Shown piece after piece: positions 5,231 to 16,996 of a stretch of 20,000 bases of DNA (its first letter is position 1; each line of letters begins with the position of its first letter). Both the position numbers and the translations under genes were made by a program. Location: IMG/VR virus record IMGVR_UViG_3300042309_000903. One strand, given 5' to 3'. Origin of the DNA: an uncultured virus (IMG/VR IMGVR_UViG_3300042309_000903). Lineage: Duplodnaviria; Heunggongvirae; Uroviricota; Caudoviricetes. The notes beneath the pieces were generated by a model that saw nothing but the letters and a program-made list of their open reading frames with translations, was not told the DNA's origin and ran no database searches.

Positions 5231-5261
5231 ATACTAGCACTAATATCGACATGTCGCTTTA
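5231..5261 (-). promoter_or_regulatory. Promoter/operator with palindrome CGACATGTCG, before the portal gene
   Basis: TAAAGCGACATGTCGATATTAGTGCTAGTAT; a near-identical copy lies at 7781-7811. Confidence 0.6.
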
Positions 5262-6112: not shown

Positions 6113-7687
6113 TTATCTATAAAAAGGTGAAGAAGATACTTCTACCGAAGGCATAGTTAAATCCATAGTTAAACAGACAGCGATGGCCAAGCTATCCGCG
6201 TAGTCGTCGTGGGCGTGAGCTTCAGCGGGGGCGTGGGCTAAGAAATTTGGGCCTTGAAACTTTGTCTCAAGGTCGGTCATTTGTTGGTAAAAACGCTTCC
6301 AAGTTCTAAGGCGTCTGGTCTTAGCGTGTGCAGGCCAACCAACCATCCGTCGGTCAATCAAAGCCTTAAGGTGCTTCCAGCGCTTTGACTGCTCTTGTTG
6401 GCTACTGCCAATTGAGTGAACTTCTGCCCCTGGAAGTAGAAGTTTAAGGCGCTGGGCTACTGCATCACCAACTCCGTTAGCATCTACACCTACCGCTAAA
6501 ACATCGTAAGAGCCAAGAAAGTTTACAATTTGAAAATATTGGTCTTCCCAATCGTCGCCTTGAATTTCTAACCAATTAAGTACTCGGTGGTCGTAATAGC
6601 CAAACTCATCTGGTCTATCCCAGTCAACCCAAACTACAGTGACGACAGTTGAGTCCATTTTACGTGCAGGGTCAATTCCAACTACAACTGGAGTACGGTG
6701 CCAAGCCTTGACAACCTCTTGAGATGTATCTCCAAGCTCATCCATAATTGTGGACGTAACGAACATCCCGCGTTCTAGTAGCCACTTACAGTTGTACGAC
6801 ATTTGGAACTCATCAGAGTCCTCGCCAACACGAAGCATTTCTTTTTTGATGAACTTGCCGTAATTAAGGTTTACTTTTGATACGTCTTTATAATCCCATT
6901 GAAAGTGGTTCTGCCTAGATGCTCTACCTGTTTGTCTACGCTTGTTTAATTGAATAGAGCGATAAAAGTTATTCTTGTGGGTAGTCGGAGTGCCGGTCTT
7001 AACCATAGTCCCTGAGTAGTACGCAAGCATCGGAGAAATTGATTTAGATACTACGAAGTCATCTGCCTCTTGACACTCGTCAATAACAATAAGATGAAAC
7101 GACTTAGATTCAATCTTTGCGCGAGGGTTAGCTGTCATCATCATTAGGCTACTGCCTGAGTTTTTAAGTTTAATTTGTCGTGTTACTCCTGGCACTTTAC
7201 CGAGAGAGTCATCAATCTCTGGGTCACCTAAAATTTCTAATGCACGCTCAGAAGTTAGACGATTTACTGTGCGACCAAAGAGCGTTTCAACCTGCCCCTC
7301 TACTGGAGCAAACATTCCAATCCAGATGCCGTCTTTAAACTGACCAAGTAAATCTGGGTACATTTTTGCAAGTCTAGGCAACAACACCATTAACGTAGCT
7401 ACTGTATTAGCAATTGTTTCTGACTTACCAGACTGGCGTGCAGCAAGTGCAGTGATTTCTTCGCCGTCGTTAATGACCACAGACTCAATGATGCGACGAG
7501 CAAGGGGTAGTTGATACGCGTGTAACTCGTGCCCAACTAGCGCGTTCATAAACTGAATTGTTTTGTCTACAATTTTACGAACAAATTCTTTAGAGAGCTC
7601 GTCTAGCTCTTCTTCCTCTTCTTCAATGAGTTCTTCTTCATCGTCTAAGAGTTCTTCGTCTTCTTCTAAAAATTCTAACTCGCTCAT
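6113..7687 (-). CDS. terL: Terminase large subunit
   Basis: Walker A AARQSGKSE, Walker B LIVIDECQ, motif III TGTP, and RNase H-like nuclease residues VGIDPA and HDDYADSLA. Confidence 0.93.
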   Translation of the reverse strand: MSELEFLEEDEELLDDEEELIEEEEEELDELSKEFVRKIVDKTIQFMNALVGHELHAYQLPLARRIIESVVINDGEEITALAARQSGKSETIANTVATLMVLLPRLAKMYPDLLGQFKDGIWIGMFAPVEGQVETLFGRTVNRLTSERALEILGDPEIDDSLGKVPGVTRQIKLKNSGSSLMMMTANPRAKIESKSFHLIVIDECQEADDFVVSKSISPMLAYYSGTMVKTGTPTTHKNNFYRSIQLNKRRQTGRASRQNHFQWDYKDVSKVNLNYGKFIKKEMLRVGEDSDEFQMSYNCKWLLERGMFVTSTIMDELGDTSQEVVKAWHRTPVVVGIDPARKMDSTVVTVVWVDWDRPDEFGYYDHRVLNWLEIQGDDWEDQYFQIVNFLGSYDVLAVGVDANGVGDAVAQRLKLLLPGAEVHSIGSSQQEQSKRWKHLKALIDRRMVGWPAHAKTRRLRTWKRFYQQMTDLETKFQGPNFLAHAPAEAHAHDDYADSLAIAVCLTMDLTMPSVEVSSSPFYR

Positions 7688-7704
7688 ATGTTCCTTAGTC
7701 TAGT

Positions 7705-7777
7705 AAAAAACATGAAACCCTGGTAGGTATACCAGGGTTCACGCTGCCACACACGGGAGAGAAGGAAGAGAGGCAAG
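7705..7777 (-). ncRNA. Candidate small RNA or attenuating leader with a pyrimidine-rich (anti-SD-like) loop and terminator
   Basis: Follows TACAAT at 7781-7786. TGCC-[TCTCTTCCTTCTCTCCCGTGTGT]-GGCA, then terminator stem GAACCCTGGT/ACCAGGGTTT and CATGTTTTTT. Confidence 0.5.
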
Positions 7778-7780
7778 ATA

Positions 7781-7811
7781 ATTGTAGCGCAAATGTCGAC
7801 ATGTCGTTTTA
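7781..7811 (-). promoter_or_regulatory. Promoter/operator with palindrome CGACATGTCG, before the sRNA candidate and terL
   Basis: TAAAACGACATGTCGACATTTGCGCTACAAT, ending in a near-consensus -10 (TACAAT). Confidence 0.6.
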
Positions 7812-8066
7812 TCCGAGTTTTGCGGTAGTTCTGGTGTGCAACTCGTGCACAACAGCATGAAGGGCCTCTGCCCCGGTTAAAGCCTCTTCTAGAACTGCGA
7901 CATCACGGGTCCTAGAGTAAACGCTCATACAGCGACCTATTTCGTACGTAGCCTGTTCAATCCACATTTCAAGTTCTGTTGTGTGGATTCTTCTTACGCG
8001 TTTTAAAACTTTTTCTGAGAAAGGCTTATCCCAAGGACTTTTCTTTTTAAACACGCCAGTCACCAA
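7809..8066 (-). CDS. Hypothetical protein
   Basis: About 85 aa, helical. Overlaps the upstream gene; start uncertain (GTG 8054 is possible). Confidence 0.65.
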   Translation of the reverse strand: MVTGVFKKKSPWDKPFSEKVLKRVRRIHTTELEMWIEQATYEIGRCMSVYSRTRDVAVLEEALTGAEALHAVVHELHTRTTAKLG

Positions 8067-8335: not shown

Positions 8336-8836
8336 TCAGTTTGCTGCGAAGCCTCCGCCATCTCCGTACATATAACTAGCAAATGTTTTAATGTCGTTAA
8401 GCTGAACTCTCTGGTCTCTTGGCATTCCAGCTGGGTCAGCTAATCCCATTTTAGGCCATCTATTGAGGCCAGAACTTTCTAAGTATTGACCCTTTGACTC
8501 TGAAAGAACAAAACCATCCCACAGGTACTGTGGAACATCGTAGTAGTTCCACCAAGTGCCATCCCTAAAAACTACAGTTAAAGTTTGAGTATTTGCGTCG
8601 TATCCAGCTTTTAGTGTTCTTGGTTTTTTAGGGTTCGAGGTTGTTGTTGCCCTTAAGTTATACGCAGATATAACTTGATACTTTGAAGTTATTTCTGCTT
8701 TTTTTACTTTTGATGACGGGTTAAATAGATACTCATCAAGGGTTGGAAGGTTAGAGGCTCCAGAAGGTTGACCTATTTGATATCCGCCAAGTAGCACGTC
8801 AATACTAGGTACTTGGGCTCTTTTTCTTGGGGTCAT
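8336..8836 (-). CDS. KTSC domain-containing protein
   Basis: AGYDANTQTLTVVFRDGTWWNYYDVPQYLWDGFVLSESKGQYL matches the KTSC pattern (GYD....L.V.F..G..Y.Y..VP...W..F..A.SKG.Y). Confidence 0.8.
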   Translation of the reverse strand: MTPRKRAQVPSIDVLLGGYQIGQPSGASNLPTLDEYLFNPSSKVKKAEITSKYQVISAYNLRATTTSNPKKPRTLKAGYDANTQTLTVVFRDGTWWNYYDVPQYLWDGFVLSESKGQYLESSGLNRWPKMGLADPAGMPRDQRVQLNDIKTFASYMYGDGGGFAAN

Positions 8837-9937: not shown

Positions 9938-10060
9938 TAGGTGTGACGTATATCATAGAACGGTAACAATAATAATACCGCTTTTAATTAAAATATTATT
10001 AAATATTTGTGCTTAAACTTGCATTTAAATGTATTTATGAATAAAAATTATTGGTTCAAC

Positions 10061-10096
10061 TTGACACAGCATGTAACTCTGGTGTTTCCTAGAACA
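10061..10096 (+). promoter_or_regulatory. Putative promoter of the transglycosylase gene
   Basis: Perfect TTGACA at 10061 downstream of a very AT-rich tract; the -10 is poorly defined. Confidence 0.4.
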
Positions 10097-10144
10097 TGAC
10101 AGGGCCACTCACAAGGTGGCCTTTGCCTACTGAGAGGAGCAGAA

Positions 10145-10687
10145 ATGCTTAATATCAGAAAAGATAAGCTAGACAAGATAGCGGTACTTGCAATTTACGG
10201 ATTGCTGATTGGAGGGTTTCCCTACGCGATTGCTAAAGCAAACGCTGAGGAGCCAGTCCAGCCGGTAGTTCAGCAAGTTCCTGTGGACCCGCTAGAGAAG
10301 TACAAAGGAGTAACAAAGTTGTCGGACACTGATTTAGTAGGACTGCTTAGCGCGGTTGGTTTTGAGGGAAAAGCTCTCAAGGTCGCCTATGCAGTAGCTA
10401 AAAAAGAGTCTAACGGCCGCCCCTTAGCCCACAATGGAAACCAAAATACAGGTGACAATTCTTACGGCATATTCCAAATCAACATGATTGCTGACCTTGG
10501 AGTGGCTCGTCGAGATAAGTTTAACCTCAAATCAAACACTCAACTCTTCGACCCAGTTGTTAACGCAAAAATTGCGTTCTTTATGACTGGAGGAGGCGAA
10601 GACTGGTCCTCTTGGAAAATCGTTCCAGGCCAGAACAACGGAGAAAGATACCAGCAGTACCTAAAGGAGTTTGCTGGACTACACTAA
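10145..10687 (+). CDS. Exported or membrane-anchored lytic transglycosylase (SLT/lysozyme-like)
   Basis: N-terminal hydrophobic signal; catalytic AVAKKES, SYGIFQINM, LFDPVVNAKIA and DWSSW. GAGGAG RBS. Confidence 0.85.
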   Translation: MLNIRKDKLDKIAVLAIYGLLIGGFPYAIAKANAEEPVQPVVQQVPVDPLEKYKGVTKLSDTDLVGLLSAVGFEGKALKVAYAVAKKESNGRPLAHNGNQNTGDNSYGIFQINMIADLGVARRDKFNLKSNTQLFDPVVNAKIAFFMTGGGEDWSSWKIVPGQNNGERYQQYLKEFAGLH

Positions 10688-13019: not shown

Positions 13020-13128
13020 AGTCTGATTCTAGATGCTTTTCTTCGCACATACGTGCTAAATCAGGAACAACGTAACGCTTATCGCATAAAGCGCAGGTAT
13101 AGCGCTTTATGCGTTCAGCATCGTCCAC
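13006..13128 (-). CDS. Zn-finger microprotein (40 aa)
   Basis: VDDAERIKRYTCALCDKRYVVPDLARMCEEKHLESDYGVR (C-x2-C-x12-C-x3-H). The GTG start overlaps the TAG of the CHAP gene. Confidence 0.65.
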   Translation of the reverse strand: MDDAERIKRYTCALCDKRYVVPDLARMCEEKHLESDYGVR

Positions 13129-13685
13129 TACTTACCGCAGGTTGGGCACTTAGCTGCTGCTGTAGCAGGTTTAGCTGCCCCCGCTGCTTTAAACTTTGGG
13201 CGACCAAAGCCGACGATTGAAATTTGCTCGCCAGCCTTGTTCTTCTTAAACGCACGAAGCTTCTTGGAAACTTGTCCGCCATTTCTCTGGCTTCCCTTTT
13301 TATCTGGGCTAGTGTTTCCTTCGATACACCAGACAGTTCCATCTTCGTTATCTTTGATAACAATTCCTACGTGAGAAATTCTATCGACGCCATCTGATGG
13401 GAAATCAAAATACGCAATATCGCCTGGTTCTGGGTCTGCGATGTCTCCATCAATCCAAGCACCAGCCTTCTTAAACGCTTGTGCACCACCAGGTGTGTAA
13501 ACGGTATTAGGGATTTTTACCCCAGCCTCATTACCGCACCAGTTGACGAAACTTCCGCACCATGGTTGGAAGTTAGCCTTTGTGTAAGCGCCGTACTTTG
13601 TTTCATTGTCCTTAGGACCTTCAATGGTTCCTAGTTCTGCTGTTGCAACTTCAATAAGACGAGCTGCTGTTCCTTGGTCTGCCAT
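13128..13685 (-). CDS. CHAP-domain peptidoglycan hydrolase (endolysin candidate)
   Basis: ELGTIEG..NETKYG, PWCGSFVNWC (catalytic Cys), PGDIAYFDF, SHVGIV (His) and IEGNT; C-terminal CPTCGK. Confidence 0.88.
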   Translation of the reverse strand: MADQGTAARLIEVATAELGTIEGPKDNETKYGAYTKANFQPWCGSFVNWCGNEAGVKIPNTVYTPGGAQAFKKAGAWIDGDIADPEPGDIAYFDFPSDGVDRISHVGIVIKDNEDGTVWCIEGNTSPDKKGSQRNGGQVSKKLRAFKKNKAGEQISIVGFGRPKFKAAGAAKPATAAAKCPTCGK

Positions 13686-16436: not shown

Positions 16437-16931
16437 CTACAGGATTGCGATTTTCTTAGGTTTTAACTCCTCAGGAAGTTCACGCTCAACTGTAATTACA
16501 AGCAAACCATCCTTTAACGATGCTTTTGCAATTTTCATGTACTCGCCAAGAACAAACTGCTGTTCCCAGGTGCGTTCAGCGATACCTTGATGGACAAACT
16601 CTTCTTTGCCCTTTTCAACTTTATTGCTCTTTACAATTAACAAGTCGTTGTCAACAGTGATGTCAATGTCGTCCTTTGAATATCCAGCTACAGCTAGCTC
16701 AACACTGTAGTTGTCATCATCAACCTTAATAATATTATAAGGAGGGAAAGACGTTGTTTTCTTTACATCAGTTAGATGCTTCCAACGTGTAATTTGGTCG
16801 TGAAATCCCAAGAAAAATTGGTCAGCAAAAATTTGTTCCAAAGATGGGATAACTGTTTTGATTGTTGCTATTTGAGGTTGCTTTGGGAAAGACTCTTCCC
16901 ATTTCATTGAATGTGGGTGGCCTGATGCCAT
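16437..16931 (-). CDS. hsp20: Small heat-shock protein, Hsp20/IbpA family
   Basis: FPPYNIIK.DDDNY.VELAVAGYSKDDI, FVHQGIAER and ASLKDGLLVI..ERELPEELKPKKI. Start ATG 16931 after AAGGAG. Confidence 0.93.
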   Translation of the reverse strand: MASGHPHSMKWEESFPKQPQIATIKTVIPSLEQIFADQFFLGFHDQITRWKHLTDVKKTTSFPPYNIIKVDDDNYSVELAVAGYSKDDIDITVDNDLLIVKSNKVEKGKEEFVHQGIAERTWEQQFVLGEYMKIAKASLKDGLLVITVERELPEELKPKKIAIL

Positions 16932-16996
16932 AATATATCTCCTTAGACGATATAAGTTAGTTGAGCCCCAATCGGCGGCTCTATCCAATTATAACA
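16932..16996 (-). promoter_or_regulatory. hsp20 extended -10 promoter and structured 5' UTR
   Basis: TGTTATAAT at 16988-16996, followed by two hairpins; the second covers the SD. Confidence 0.65.

What the first reader, a model, noticed from the sequence alone, without database searches (positions are those of the whole stretch)
7688..7811. Candidate phage sRNA with an anti-Shine-Dalgarno loop, whose terminator also gates terminase expression
Seen on the minus strand: a -10 (TACAAT, 7781-7786) inside a palindromic operator. Next is a short stem TGCC/GGCA enclosing an uninterrupted pyrimidine tract (CUCUCUUCCUUCUCUCCC), then a strong hairpin with U-tract (7705-7742) only ~10 nt before the terL RBS. 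Established: bacterial sRNAs often use exposed CU-rich seeds to pair with AG-rich ribosome-binding sites. Inferred: this is a ~70-nt trans-acting RNA that could silence SD-led host or phage mRNAs while sparing leaderless transcripts, which this phage seems to use. Alternatively or additionally, it is an attenuator that keeps TerL low unless read through.
Basis: partly seen in the sequence, partly recalled or inferred. Interest (0 to 1): 0.8.

Follow-up and report, generated by a model that had tools for sequence, protein, structure and literature searches.

The report
Phage small RNA beside terminase gene
A group of uncultured freshwater phages of Actinobacteria keeps a small, uncatalogued RNA gene in front of the terminase gene; its exposed pyrimidine loop probably pairs with messenger RNAs, and its best-conserved match is a signal just ahead of an apparent reading-frame shift in a tail-assembly gene, but neither the RNA nor the pairing has been shown by experiment.

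Summary
The element is real. A -10 box, a CU-rich loop in a weak 3-bp stem and a long covarying terminator hairpin sit before terL in 113 of 140 distinct terL-upstream regions of BRock-like freshwater actinophages; hairpin 2 covaries at 14 of 14 pairs; no Rfam match. It is best read as a stand-alone RNA gene of about 70 nt. The attenuator idea is not supported: terL mostly has a second -10 after the terminator, other genes are sometimes inserted between, and the element was lost repeatedly. General SD silencing is unlikely, because the phage's own genes are mostly SD-led. New lead: the only orthologous site that ranks in the top 40 duplex sites in all 12 genomes tested is a conserved internal SD in the tail-chaperone gene, 20 codons before an apparent +1 frameshift. 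Against: no own-versus-swapped covariation, weak pairing in this window's own phage (rank 35), no transcript data. The scan noted anti-SD-loop phage RNAs on other DNA before; none matched this sequence.

The parts
7793..7806 (-). Palindromic upstream promoter motif (TGTCGA core at 7801-7796), 9 nt before the -10
   Evidence: Sequence; TGTCGAC in 25 of 82 distinct elements; the same motif and spacing recur before the portal gene
7781..7786 (-). P1 -10 hexamer TACAAT of the RNA gene
   Evidence: A and last T invariant in 47 of 47 aligned relatives; 6-7 nt before the stem in 75 of 82 (5-8 nt was allowed by the rule)
7746..7774 (-). Hairpin 1: GCC/GGC stem closing the CU-rich loop; predicted +1 at G 7774
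   Evidence: 92% of cells paired, 1 of 3 pairs with a two-sided change, 10 mismatches at the first pair; not predicted by RNAalifold; tract unpaired in the 72-nt RNA
7755..7773 (-). 19-nt pyrimidine tract, the presumed pairing seed
   Evidence: Longest such run in the window; UCUCC in 72 of 82 elements
7705..7744 (-). Hairpin 2 (about 14 bp) and U-tract: intrinsic terminator
   Evidence: z -6.2; 14 of 14 pairs with two-sided changes in 67 sequences, 0 of 500 shuffles as high
7697..7702 (-). P2 -10-like hexamer TAGACT, probably terL's own promoter
   Evidence: Consensus hexamer 6-10 nt before the ATG in 57 of 82 elements, peak at 9 nt; kept in L014, L016, L020, L031, L055, L236 where the SD is gone
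7691..7696 (-). AAGGAA, SD-like sequence before terL
   Evidence: Sequence; pairing with the RNA's own loop is not conserved: 1 of 82 at -8 kcal/mol or better
6113..7687 (-). Terminase large subunit gene
   Evidence: phrog_2, E 7e-31; 54.7% identical to Streptomyces phage BRock TerL
7809..8066 (-). Conserved small gene of unknown function upstream of the element (start uncertain)
   Evidence: No PHROG or Pfam hit; present upstream of terL in relatives with and without the RNA
5231..5256 (-). Portal-gene promoter of the same class as P1 (palindrome, TGTCGA, 9 nt, TAGTAT)
   Evidence: 2 matches in the window against 0.23 expected, 5 of 200 shuffles reach 2 (pattern written after seeing both sites); also before the portal gene of G002

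Best explanation
The element is a stand-alone, probably late-expressed small RNA gene of about 70 nt (7774 to about 7705), inserted between a conserved small gene and terL in BRock-like freshwater actinophages. Shown by comparison: its own promoter, an open CU-rich loop, a covarying terminator, and a separate -10 for terL behind it. Inferred: it works without a chaperone, like 6C and cuckoo RNAs, by pairing its loop with purine-rich SD-type sites of selected mRNAs, not with all SDs. The best candidate target is in the phage's own tail module: an invariant internal SD (GGAGGUG) in the T4 gp26-like gene between tail tube and tape measure, 20 codons before an apparent +1 shift site (UUU-C) that would join a ~50-residue extension. 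Pairing there could change ribosome traffic, mRNA stability or the ratio of short to long chaperone. My odds by step: RNA gene 0.85; acts by loop pairing 0.65; tail-chaperone site is a real target 0.3; it alters frameshifting 0.2.
For: Conservation and anatomy. One copy per genome; 86 of 94 exact loop-pattern hits in IMG/VR lie at this site. Independence from terL. Late promoter class shared with the portal gene. Anti-SD loops. Target: rank among all duplex sites of the own genome 1, 1, 1, 2, 4, 6, 6, 13, 23, 33, 34, 35 in 12 of 12 genomes; the only orthologous position in the top 40 of all 12; codons CGC, GAG, GTG, GCA and the shift-site TTT identical in 24 of 24 non-redundant genes, synonymous conservation 0.6-0.9 against 0.07 +/- 0.07 elsewhere; for 5 of 8 RNA variants at most 1 of 1055 host start regions pairs better; G002 forms a perfect 14-bp helix.
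Against: No transcript ends: RNA-library contigs of three runs run through the element into terL and may be DNA. Stem 1 is weak and hardly covaries. Own RNA-target pairs are no better than swapped pairs (p 0.21 for 21 genomes, 0.80 for 16). In the window's own phage (G130, identical to the window over 10,053 bases) the site ranks 35, its helix is at background, net binding is -5.8 kcal/mol and 52 host start regions pair better. Block-shuffled RNAs do as well as the real one in 2, 10 and 0 of 25 trials, so much of the signal is composition: any CU-rich loop likes a perfect SD. The target's invariance can be explained in cis (it can fold on itself, without covariation). G125 lacks the RNA at terL yet keeps the SD. 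RNA and target co-occur by clade, which gives one or two independent contrasts only. The RNA is dispensable (none found in complete genome G010).
Confidence: 0.5

Rival explanations
1. Broad anti-SD silencer: the RNA masks many SD-led host or early phage mRNAs and spares leaderless ones.
For: UCUCC in 72 of 82 loops; L275/L283 and L214/L273 show 9-10 nt of the 16S tail in loop 2; 53-143 of 1055 host start regions reach -20 kcal/mol; the start region of the gene after the DNA polymerase-like gene ranks 2, 2, 2, 5, 12, 16, 55 in seven genomes.
Against: The phage's own genes are mostly SD-led, capsid gene included. The commonest longest match to the 16S tail is only 4-6 nt. No conserved host site: the perfect loop complement occurs 8 times in 41 genomes against 9 for the control, and a top host candidate, rodA/ftsW, is strong in 1 of 30 orthologues for three RNAs, 2 of 30 for a fourth.
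Confidence: 0.13
2. Protein-binding RNA (decoy or scaffold): the pyrimidine loop and the partly conserved U/A-rich loop of hairpin 2 bind a host or phage protein such as S1, a cold-shock protein or a packaging factor.
For: Loop 1 varies in register but stays pyrimidine-rich; no covariation with any target; two positions at the tip of hairpin 2 are invariant in 47 main-clade sequences.
Against: Some lineages use exact 16S-tail copies in their loops, which fits base pairing better; loop 2 is freely replaced in the wider family. No protein partner was tested.
Confidence: 0.14
3. No RNA function: a leftover promoter and a terminator that insulate terL from upstream transcription, with hairpin 1 kept by descent.
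For: Repeated losses; L260 lacks hairpin 1 but keeps P1, hairpin 2 and P2 (its TerL is identical to that of L259, so the loss is recent or an assembly error).
Against: Hairpin 1 sequence is kept across TerL identities down to about 80% while flanking DNA diverges; a promoter firing into a terminator 40 nt later makes sense only if the short RNA is wanted.
Confidence: 0.1
4. Cis-acting leader or attenuator that keeps TerL low unless read through.
For: Fixed position before terL; in the minimal forms (L292, L294, L317, L318) and in L302/L322 no clear P2 follows and the U-tract is short, so there it may be a terL leader; in the window the loop can pair with the terL SD in a read-through transcript.
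Against: P2 in 66 of 82; loop-SD pairing in 1 of 82; tRNAs or another gene inserted between; no conserved antiterminator seen; terL follows P1 directly and leaderless where the element is missing (L299, L301, L303).
Confidence: 0.08
5. DNA-level packaging signal (pac) or packaging RNA used by the terminase.
For: One copy per genome, next to terL.
Against: Absent from a complete genome and from many close relatives with the same TerL; promoter-terminator frame; no genome-end data point here.
Confidence: 0.05

Closest known systems
6C (B11) sRNA of Actinobacteria, Rfam RF01066 (PMC6486639, abstract and outline seen)
   Same: Same host phylum; pyrimidine loops that pair with purine-rich mRNA stretches, reported to need no RNA chaperone.
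   Different: 6C has two C-rich loops on firm stems and is chromosomal; this RNA has one CU loop on a 3-bp stem plus a terminator and is phage-borne. No Rfam match; RF01066 was not found in 61 host-family genomes searched.
Cuckoo / alpha-r14 RNAs (RSs0680/CcsR) of Alphaproteobacteria (PMC4615179, passages seen)
   Same: Hairpin loops with an anti-SD-like motif, stems free to covary; two-loop versions occur here too (L214, L264, L275).
   Different: Cuckoo loops hold the fixed motif CCUCCUCCC in modular hairpins; here the loop is a longer, variable CU tract, usually single, in an actinophage.
Programmed frameshift of phage tail assembly chaperones, lambda G/GT type (PMC5009743, passages seen)
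   Same: Gene between tail tube and tape measure with an overlapping second frame; UUU-Y is described there as +1 shift-prone.
   Different: Lambda shifts -1 at a set ratio; here the apparent shift is +1, in a T4 gp26-like gene (PF12322), with a conserved internal SD 60 nt upstream. The passages seen list proteins, polyamines and miRNA as trans factors, no bacterial or phage sRNA.
Candidate structured RNAs upstream of phage terminases (PMC10690425, passages and part of supplements seen)
   Same: 14 candidates there lie upstream of a large terminase gene.
   Different: Different terminase domain labels in the two rows seen; loop motifs not found in the three files searched, but the files most likely to hold sequences could not be read, so overlap is not excluded.

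Membership tests
6C RNA (RF01066) | Match to the Rfam model | tested here: not met
   No hit at E up to 1 in the window or up to 10 in 7660-7840
6C RNA (RF01066) | Two stem-loops with C-rich loops | tested here: not met
   One CU-rich loop; loop 2 is U/A-rich in most copies
Cuckoo / alpha-r14 RNA | Loop motif CCUCCUCCC in modular hairpins | tested here: not met
   Motif absent from the window's loop; family core is UCUCC; no Rfam hit
Trans-acting base-pairing sRNA | Own promoter and intrinsic terminator | tested here: met
   By conservation only:
Trans-acting base-pairing sRNA | Conserved single-stranded seed | tested here: met
   Tract unpaired in six variants folded, with partial pairing in G007; conserved composition and core
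Trans-acting base-pairing sRNA | Discrete transcript | tested here: inconclusive
   Only assembled contigs of relatives were available; they bridge the element and cannot show ends or strand
Trans-acting base-pairing sRNA | Conserved, co-varying target | tested here: inconclusive
   One conserved top-ranking site but no covariation
Trans-acting base-pairing sRNA | Non-coding; not the SD of an opposite-strand gene | tested here: met
   An antisense ORF of 20 aa or more starts near the tract in 2 of 82; indels of 1-2 nt in the loop
Transcription attenuator | Downstream gene depends on read-through (no promoter after the terminator) | tested here: not met
   -10-like hexamer after the terminator in 66 of 82; not clear for the minimal forms
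Transcription attenuator | Conserved alternative (antiterminator) fold | tested here: inconclusive
   Consensus fold shows only the terminator hairpin; some single folds extend hairpin 2 with GUGG; no dedicated test
Tail chaperone programmed frameshift | Conserved slippery site and open second frame between tube and tape measure genes | tested here: met
   TTT in 24 of 24; TTT-C just before the stop and an open +1 frame of about 45-70 residues in the genes printed
Tail chaperone programmed frameshift | Fusion product made | not testable with these tools
   Needs proteomics or a reporter

The most novel reading that the evidence does not exclude
A phage-encoded small RNA pairs in trans with an internal SD hairpin in the tail-chaperone mRNA, two ribosome lengths ahead of a +1 shift site, and so tunes the ratio of short to frameshifted chaperone; placed at the head of the packaging operon under a late promoter, it would couple head and tail output. 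No bacterial or phage sRNA acting on a programmed frameshift turned up in the searches run.
Probability: 0.2. Interest if true: 0.9.

Novelty: new variant of a known kind. Interest (0 to 1): 0.62.

Why it matters
These phages probably infect the most abundant freshwater bacteria (Nanopelagicales), and almost nothing is known of their RNA regulators. The family is well defined, comes with natural deletions, insertions and two-loop forms, and is short enough to test in a mycobacterial or Streptomyces reporter. If the tail-chaperone site is the target, a frameshift usually taken as a fixed ratio would be adjustable by an RNA. Even if it is not, the conserved internal SD element and the apparent +1 shift in a gp26-like gene are themselves unannotated in the cultured relatives looked at.

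Tried and rejected
Rfam: nothing near a gathering score. tRNA/tmRNA in the window: none. Operator around the -10: not conserved. SD of an opposite-strand gene, as in BRock and GiJojo: 2 of 82. Cis pairing with the terL SD: 1 of 82. Second copies: none in the genomes searched; host-family genomes gave only 29-33-bit hits in 6 of 101, not inspected. The model R1 does not detect the minimal forms (L292, L294, L317, L318, L650), so their kinship rests on position and layout. Host targets: perfect complement not enriched; rodA/ftsW start not conserved; best 16S sites differ between variants; only 1.2 of 1.49 Mb of one host-family genome, not known to be the true host, was scanned. RNA runs: four found, shares 0.05-0.09; contigs only, no ends or strand; X4 shows no listed piece over the element. 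Co-occurrence of a GAG-GTA motif with the minimal RNA (6 of 6 against 2 of 8) collapses to one clade contrast on the tree (quick tree, no bootstrap). Consensus fold of the chaperone element: pairs nearly invariant, covariation term -0.07. Literature searches without a description of this RNA; subscription journals are mostly not covered.

Full report
Setting. The window is the head module of a myovirus: terL (6113-7687), portal, scaffold and major capsid genes on the minus strand. The nearest cultured TerL is that of Streptomyces phage BRock at 54.7%. Relatives carry WhiB (5 of 5 near-complete records; also G004), and one terL relative lies in a Nanopelagicaceae bin (that locus lacks the element). 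WhiB is described as a marker of actinophages (PMC10202952, passages seen). An actinobacterial host, probably of the freshwater acI group, is an inference from these.

Observation. The terminator hairpin folds far better than shuffles (z -6.2); stem 1 alone does not (z -0.8). The -10 is not inside the perfect palindromes, which end 6 nt upstream. Their TGTCGA core recurs with the same 9-nt spacing before the portal gene (2 matches, 0.23 expected, pattern chosen afterwards) and before the portal gene of G002, which suggests a late promoter class rather than an operator.

Conservation. Of 80 closest terL loci, 77 showed the motif by pattern; two lacked upstream DNA and one had a mis-picked start. 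With more distant relatives, 113 of 140 distinct upstream regions were called positive; the 27 others are 3 BRock-like, 19 with no intergenic room, 2 with a 30-nt gap, 1 lacking hairpin 1, 1 minimal form missed by the rule and 1 mis-picked start. Eleven of the 113 are minimal forms that the covariance model does not detect (those tested). A pattern for the loop gave 94 stretches in IMG/VR, 86 of them at this site and 8 unrelated. The -10 A and T are invariant in 47 aligned sequences. Hairpin 2 has two-sided changes at 14 of 14 pairs in 67 sequences; stem 1 is 92% paired but changes on both sides at one pair only, with 10 mismatches there, and RNAalifold does not predict it. The model finds one strong hit per genome and none in complete genome G010. 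Rfam has no match.

Independence from terL. A second -10-like hexamer lies 3-13 nt before the terL start in 66 of 82 distinct elements, mostly at 9 nt, and persists in six where the SD is gone. It overlaps a context (ACTAAGG) that also precedes other phage genes, so promoter status is inferred. In L077 and kin tRNA-like genes, and in L291 another gene with its own -10, separate the RNA from terL. Where the element is missing, terL follows the first -10 directly (L299, L301, L303) or overlaps the upstream stop. The loop pairs well with the own terL SD in 1 of 82. The tree implies several separate losses (quick tree). Attenuation may still apply to the minimal forms, which lack a clear second promoter.

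The loop. It is unpaired in the folded RNA, has the core UCUCC in 72 of 82, and usually matches the host 16S tail (read) over only 4-6 nt; a few lineages add a near-exact copy of the tail in loop 2. It is not the SD of an opposite-strand gene (2 of 82). Broad silencing fits poorly with phage genomes whose called genes are mostly SD-led, for example 32 of 48 in G130 and 97 of 137 in G002, against 3 and 15 with a leaderless signature (the SD counts are inflated by how starts were picked).

Target search. Scanning each genome with its own hairpin 1 pointed to one orthologous site, first in G002, G004 and G007: the codons for PGPRLGEV near the end of a T4 gp26-like gene (PF12322; phrog_150) between tail tube and tape measure. 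The gene ends in TTT-C, two codons and a stop, with an open +1 frame behind it; UUU-Y is described as +1 shift-prone and tail chaperones as frameshifting genes (PMC5009743, passages seen). In 24 non-redundant genes CGC, GAG, GTG, GCA and TTT never vary and synonymous conservation reaches 0.6-0.9 against 0.07. GGAGGTG survives changes of the preceding codon and lies 20 codons before TTT. Ranks in the own genome were 1 (G002, G007, G123), 2 (G004), 4 (G005), 6 (G003, G149), 13 (G133), 23 (G006), 33 (G009), 34 (G114) and 35 (G130); no other orthologous position is in the top 40 of all 12. Against 1055 start regions of one host-family genome, 0, 0, 0, 1, 1, 10, 16 and 52 paired better for eight RNA variants (the phage site was the best of ten windows, which favours it).

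Results against that target. Own pairs are no better than swapped pairs. The window's own phage, G130, is the weakest case: rank 35, helix at background, -5.8 kcal/mol net. Shuffling within blocks matches the real RNA in 2, 10 and 0 of 25 trials. The element can fold in cis, hiding the SD, with no covariation either way. G125 keeps the SD although the RNA is gone from its terL site. The deeper clade lacks this SD and has GAG-GTA nine codons before the shift site in all six genomes with the minimal RNA and in two of eight without, but these are two clades. Energies are plain duplex energies, without kissing-loop geometry.

Expression. Four RNA runs held small shares of the region. Contigs of three span the element (X1 7064-7958, X2 7565-8022, X3 7512-7794); contigs show neither ends nor strand and may be DNA.

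Mechanism, marked by basis. Shown by sequence comparison: promoter, open loop, terminator, second promoter, single copy, repeated loss; a conserved internal SD and shift-site pattern in the chaperone gene. Inferred: transcription, late timing, chaperone-free pairing as for 6C (PMC6486639, abstract seen), and the target. Speculative: that a ribosome held at the internal SD queues behind one at the shift site and that the RNA changes this; a link between collisions and +1 shifting is reported in yeast (PMC6701860, search listing and start of abstract only).

Novelty. It works like 6C and cuckoo RNAs but fails their membership tests. Ten literature searches found no description; PMC5737381 (passages seen) has no mention of terminase; PMC10690425 lists 14 candidates upstream of terminases whose sequences could not be read, which may bear on this claim. 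Earlier notes of this scan describe other phage RNAs with anti-SD loops; none resembles this sequence or the chaperone element. Verdict: a real, probably undescribed phage sRNA family, new variant of a known kind, with a testable but unproven link to a tail-gene frameshift. Interest 0.62.

Noticed in passing
L409:1495-1599 (minus; G130:C1, the window's own phage) and L370:1291-1540: Apparent +1 programmed frameshift (TTT-C) at the end of the gp26-like tail gene, conserved out to BRock-like phages, where GiJojo's record shows two separate hypothetical genes; a conserved internal SD element lies 20 codons upstream in the main clade.
   Followed up: partly
L357:3431-3540 (minus; G009): A second, unrelated RNA-like unit: -10-like hexamer, two hairpins with CU-rich loops of 12 and 16 nt, then a terminator (-56.8 kcal/mol for the region); cuckoo-like layout.
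   Followed up: no
L343:6300-6370 (minus; G007): Another small hairpin with a CU-rich loop resembling loop 1 of that clade, followed by U-run and two terminators.
   Followed up: no
L178:1105-1174 (plus; G002): Hairpin with loop UCCUAUC before a terminator, complementary to the GATAGGA motif seen before several plus-strand genes of G002.
   Followed up: no
window 5231-5256 (minus): Portal promoter with the same palindrome and spacing as the RNA's promoter; a possible binding site for a phage regulator such as WhiB (guess).
   Followed up: partly
L260:1340-1430: Clean loss of hairpin 1 with promoter, terminator and second -10 kept; TerL identical to that of L259, which has the full RNA.
   Followed up: partly
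L077:2700-2850; L089; L131: tRNA-like genes directly behind hairpin 2, before terL (by eye; ARAGORN not run on them).
   Followed up: no
L291:749-1440: A gene that looks like a glycosyltransferase (by eye, not searched) with a leaderless start sits between the RNA and terL.
   Followed up: no
G002:C1 about 41960-41990 and orthologues: The end of the DNA polymerase-like gene forms a GGGGAGA start region for the next gene that pairs well with the loop in most of seven genomes; may be forced by the protein sequence.
   Followed up: partly
window 9940-10145: AT-rich divergent intergenic region before a plus-strand SLT/lysozyme-like gene (PF18896), the only long plus-strand gene with a family hit in this part.
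   Followed up: no
window 8336-8836; 13128-13685; 16437-16988: KTSC-domain gene, CHAP endolysin and Hsp20 gene.
   Followed up: no
L274:1733 onward: The terL match spans 1725 bases for 508 residues, so this terL may carry an insertion.
   Followed up: no
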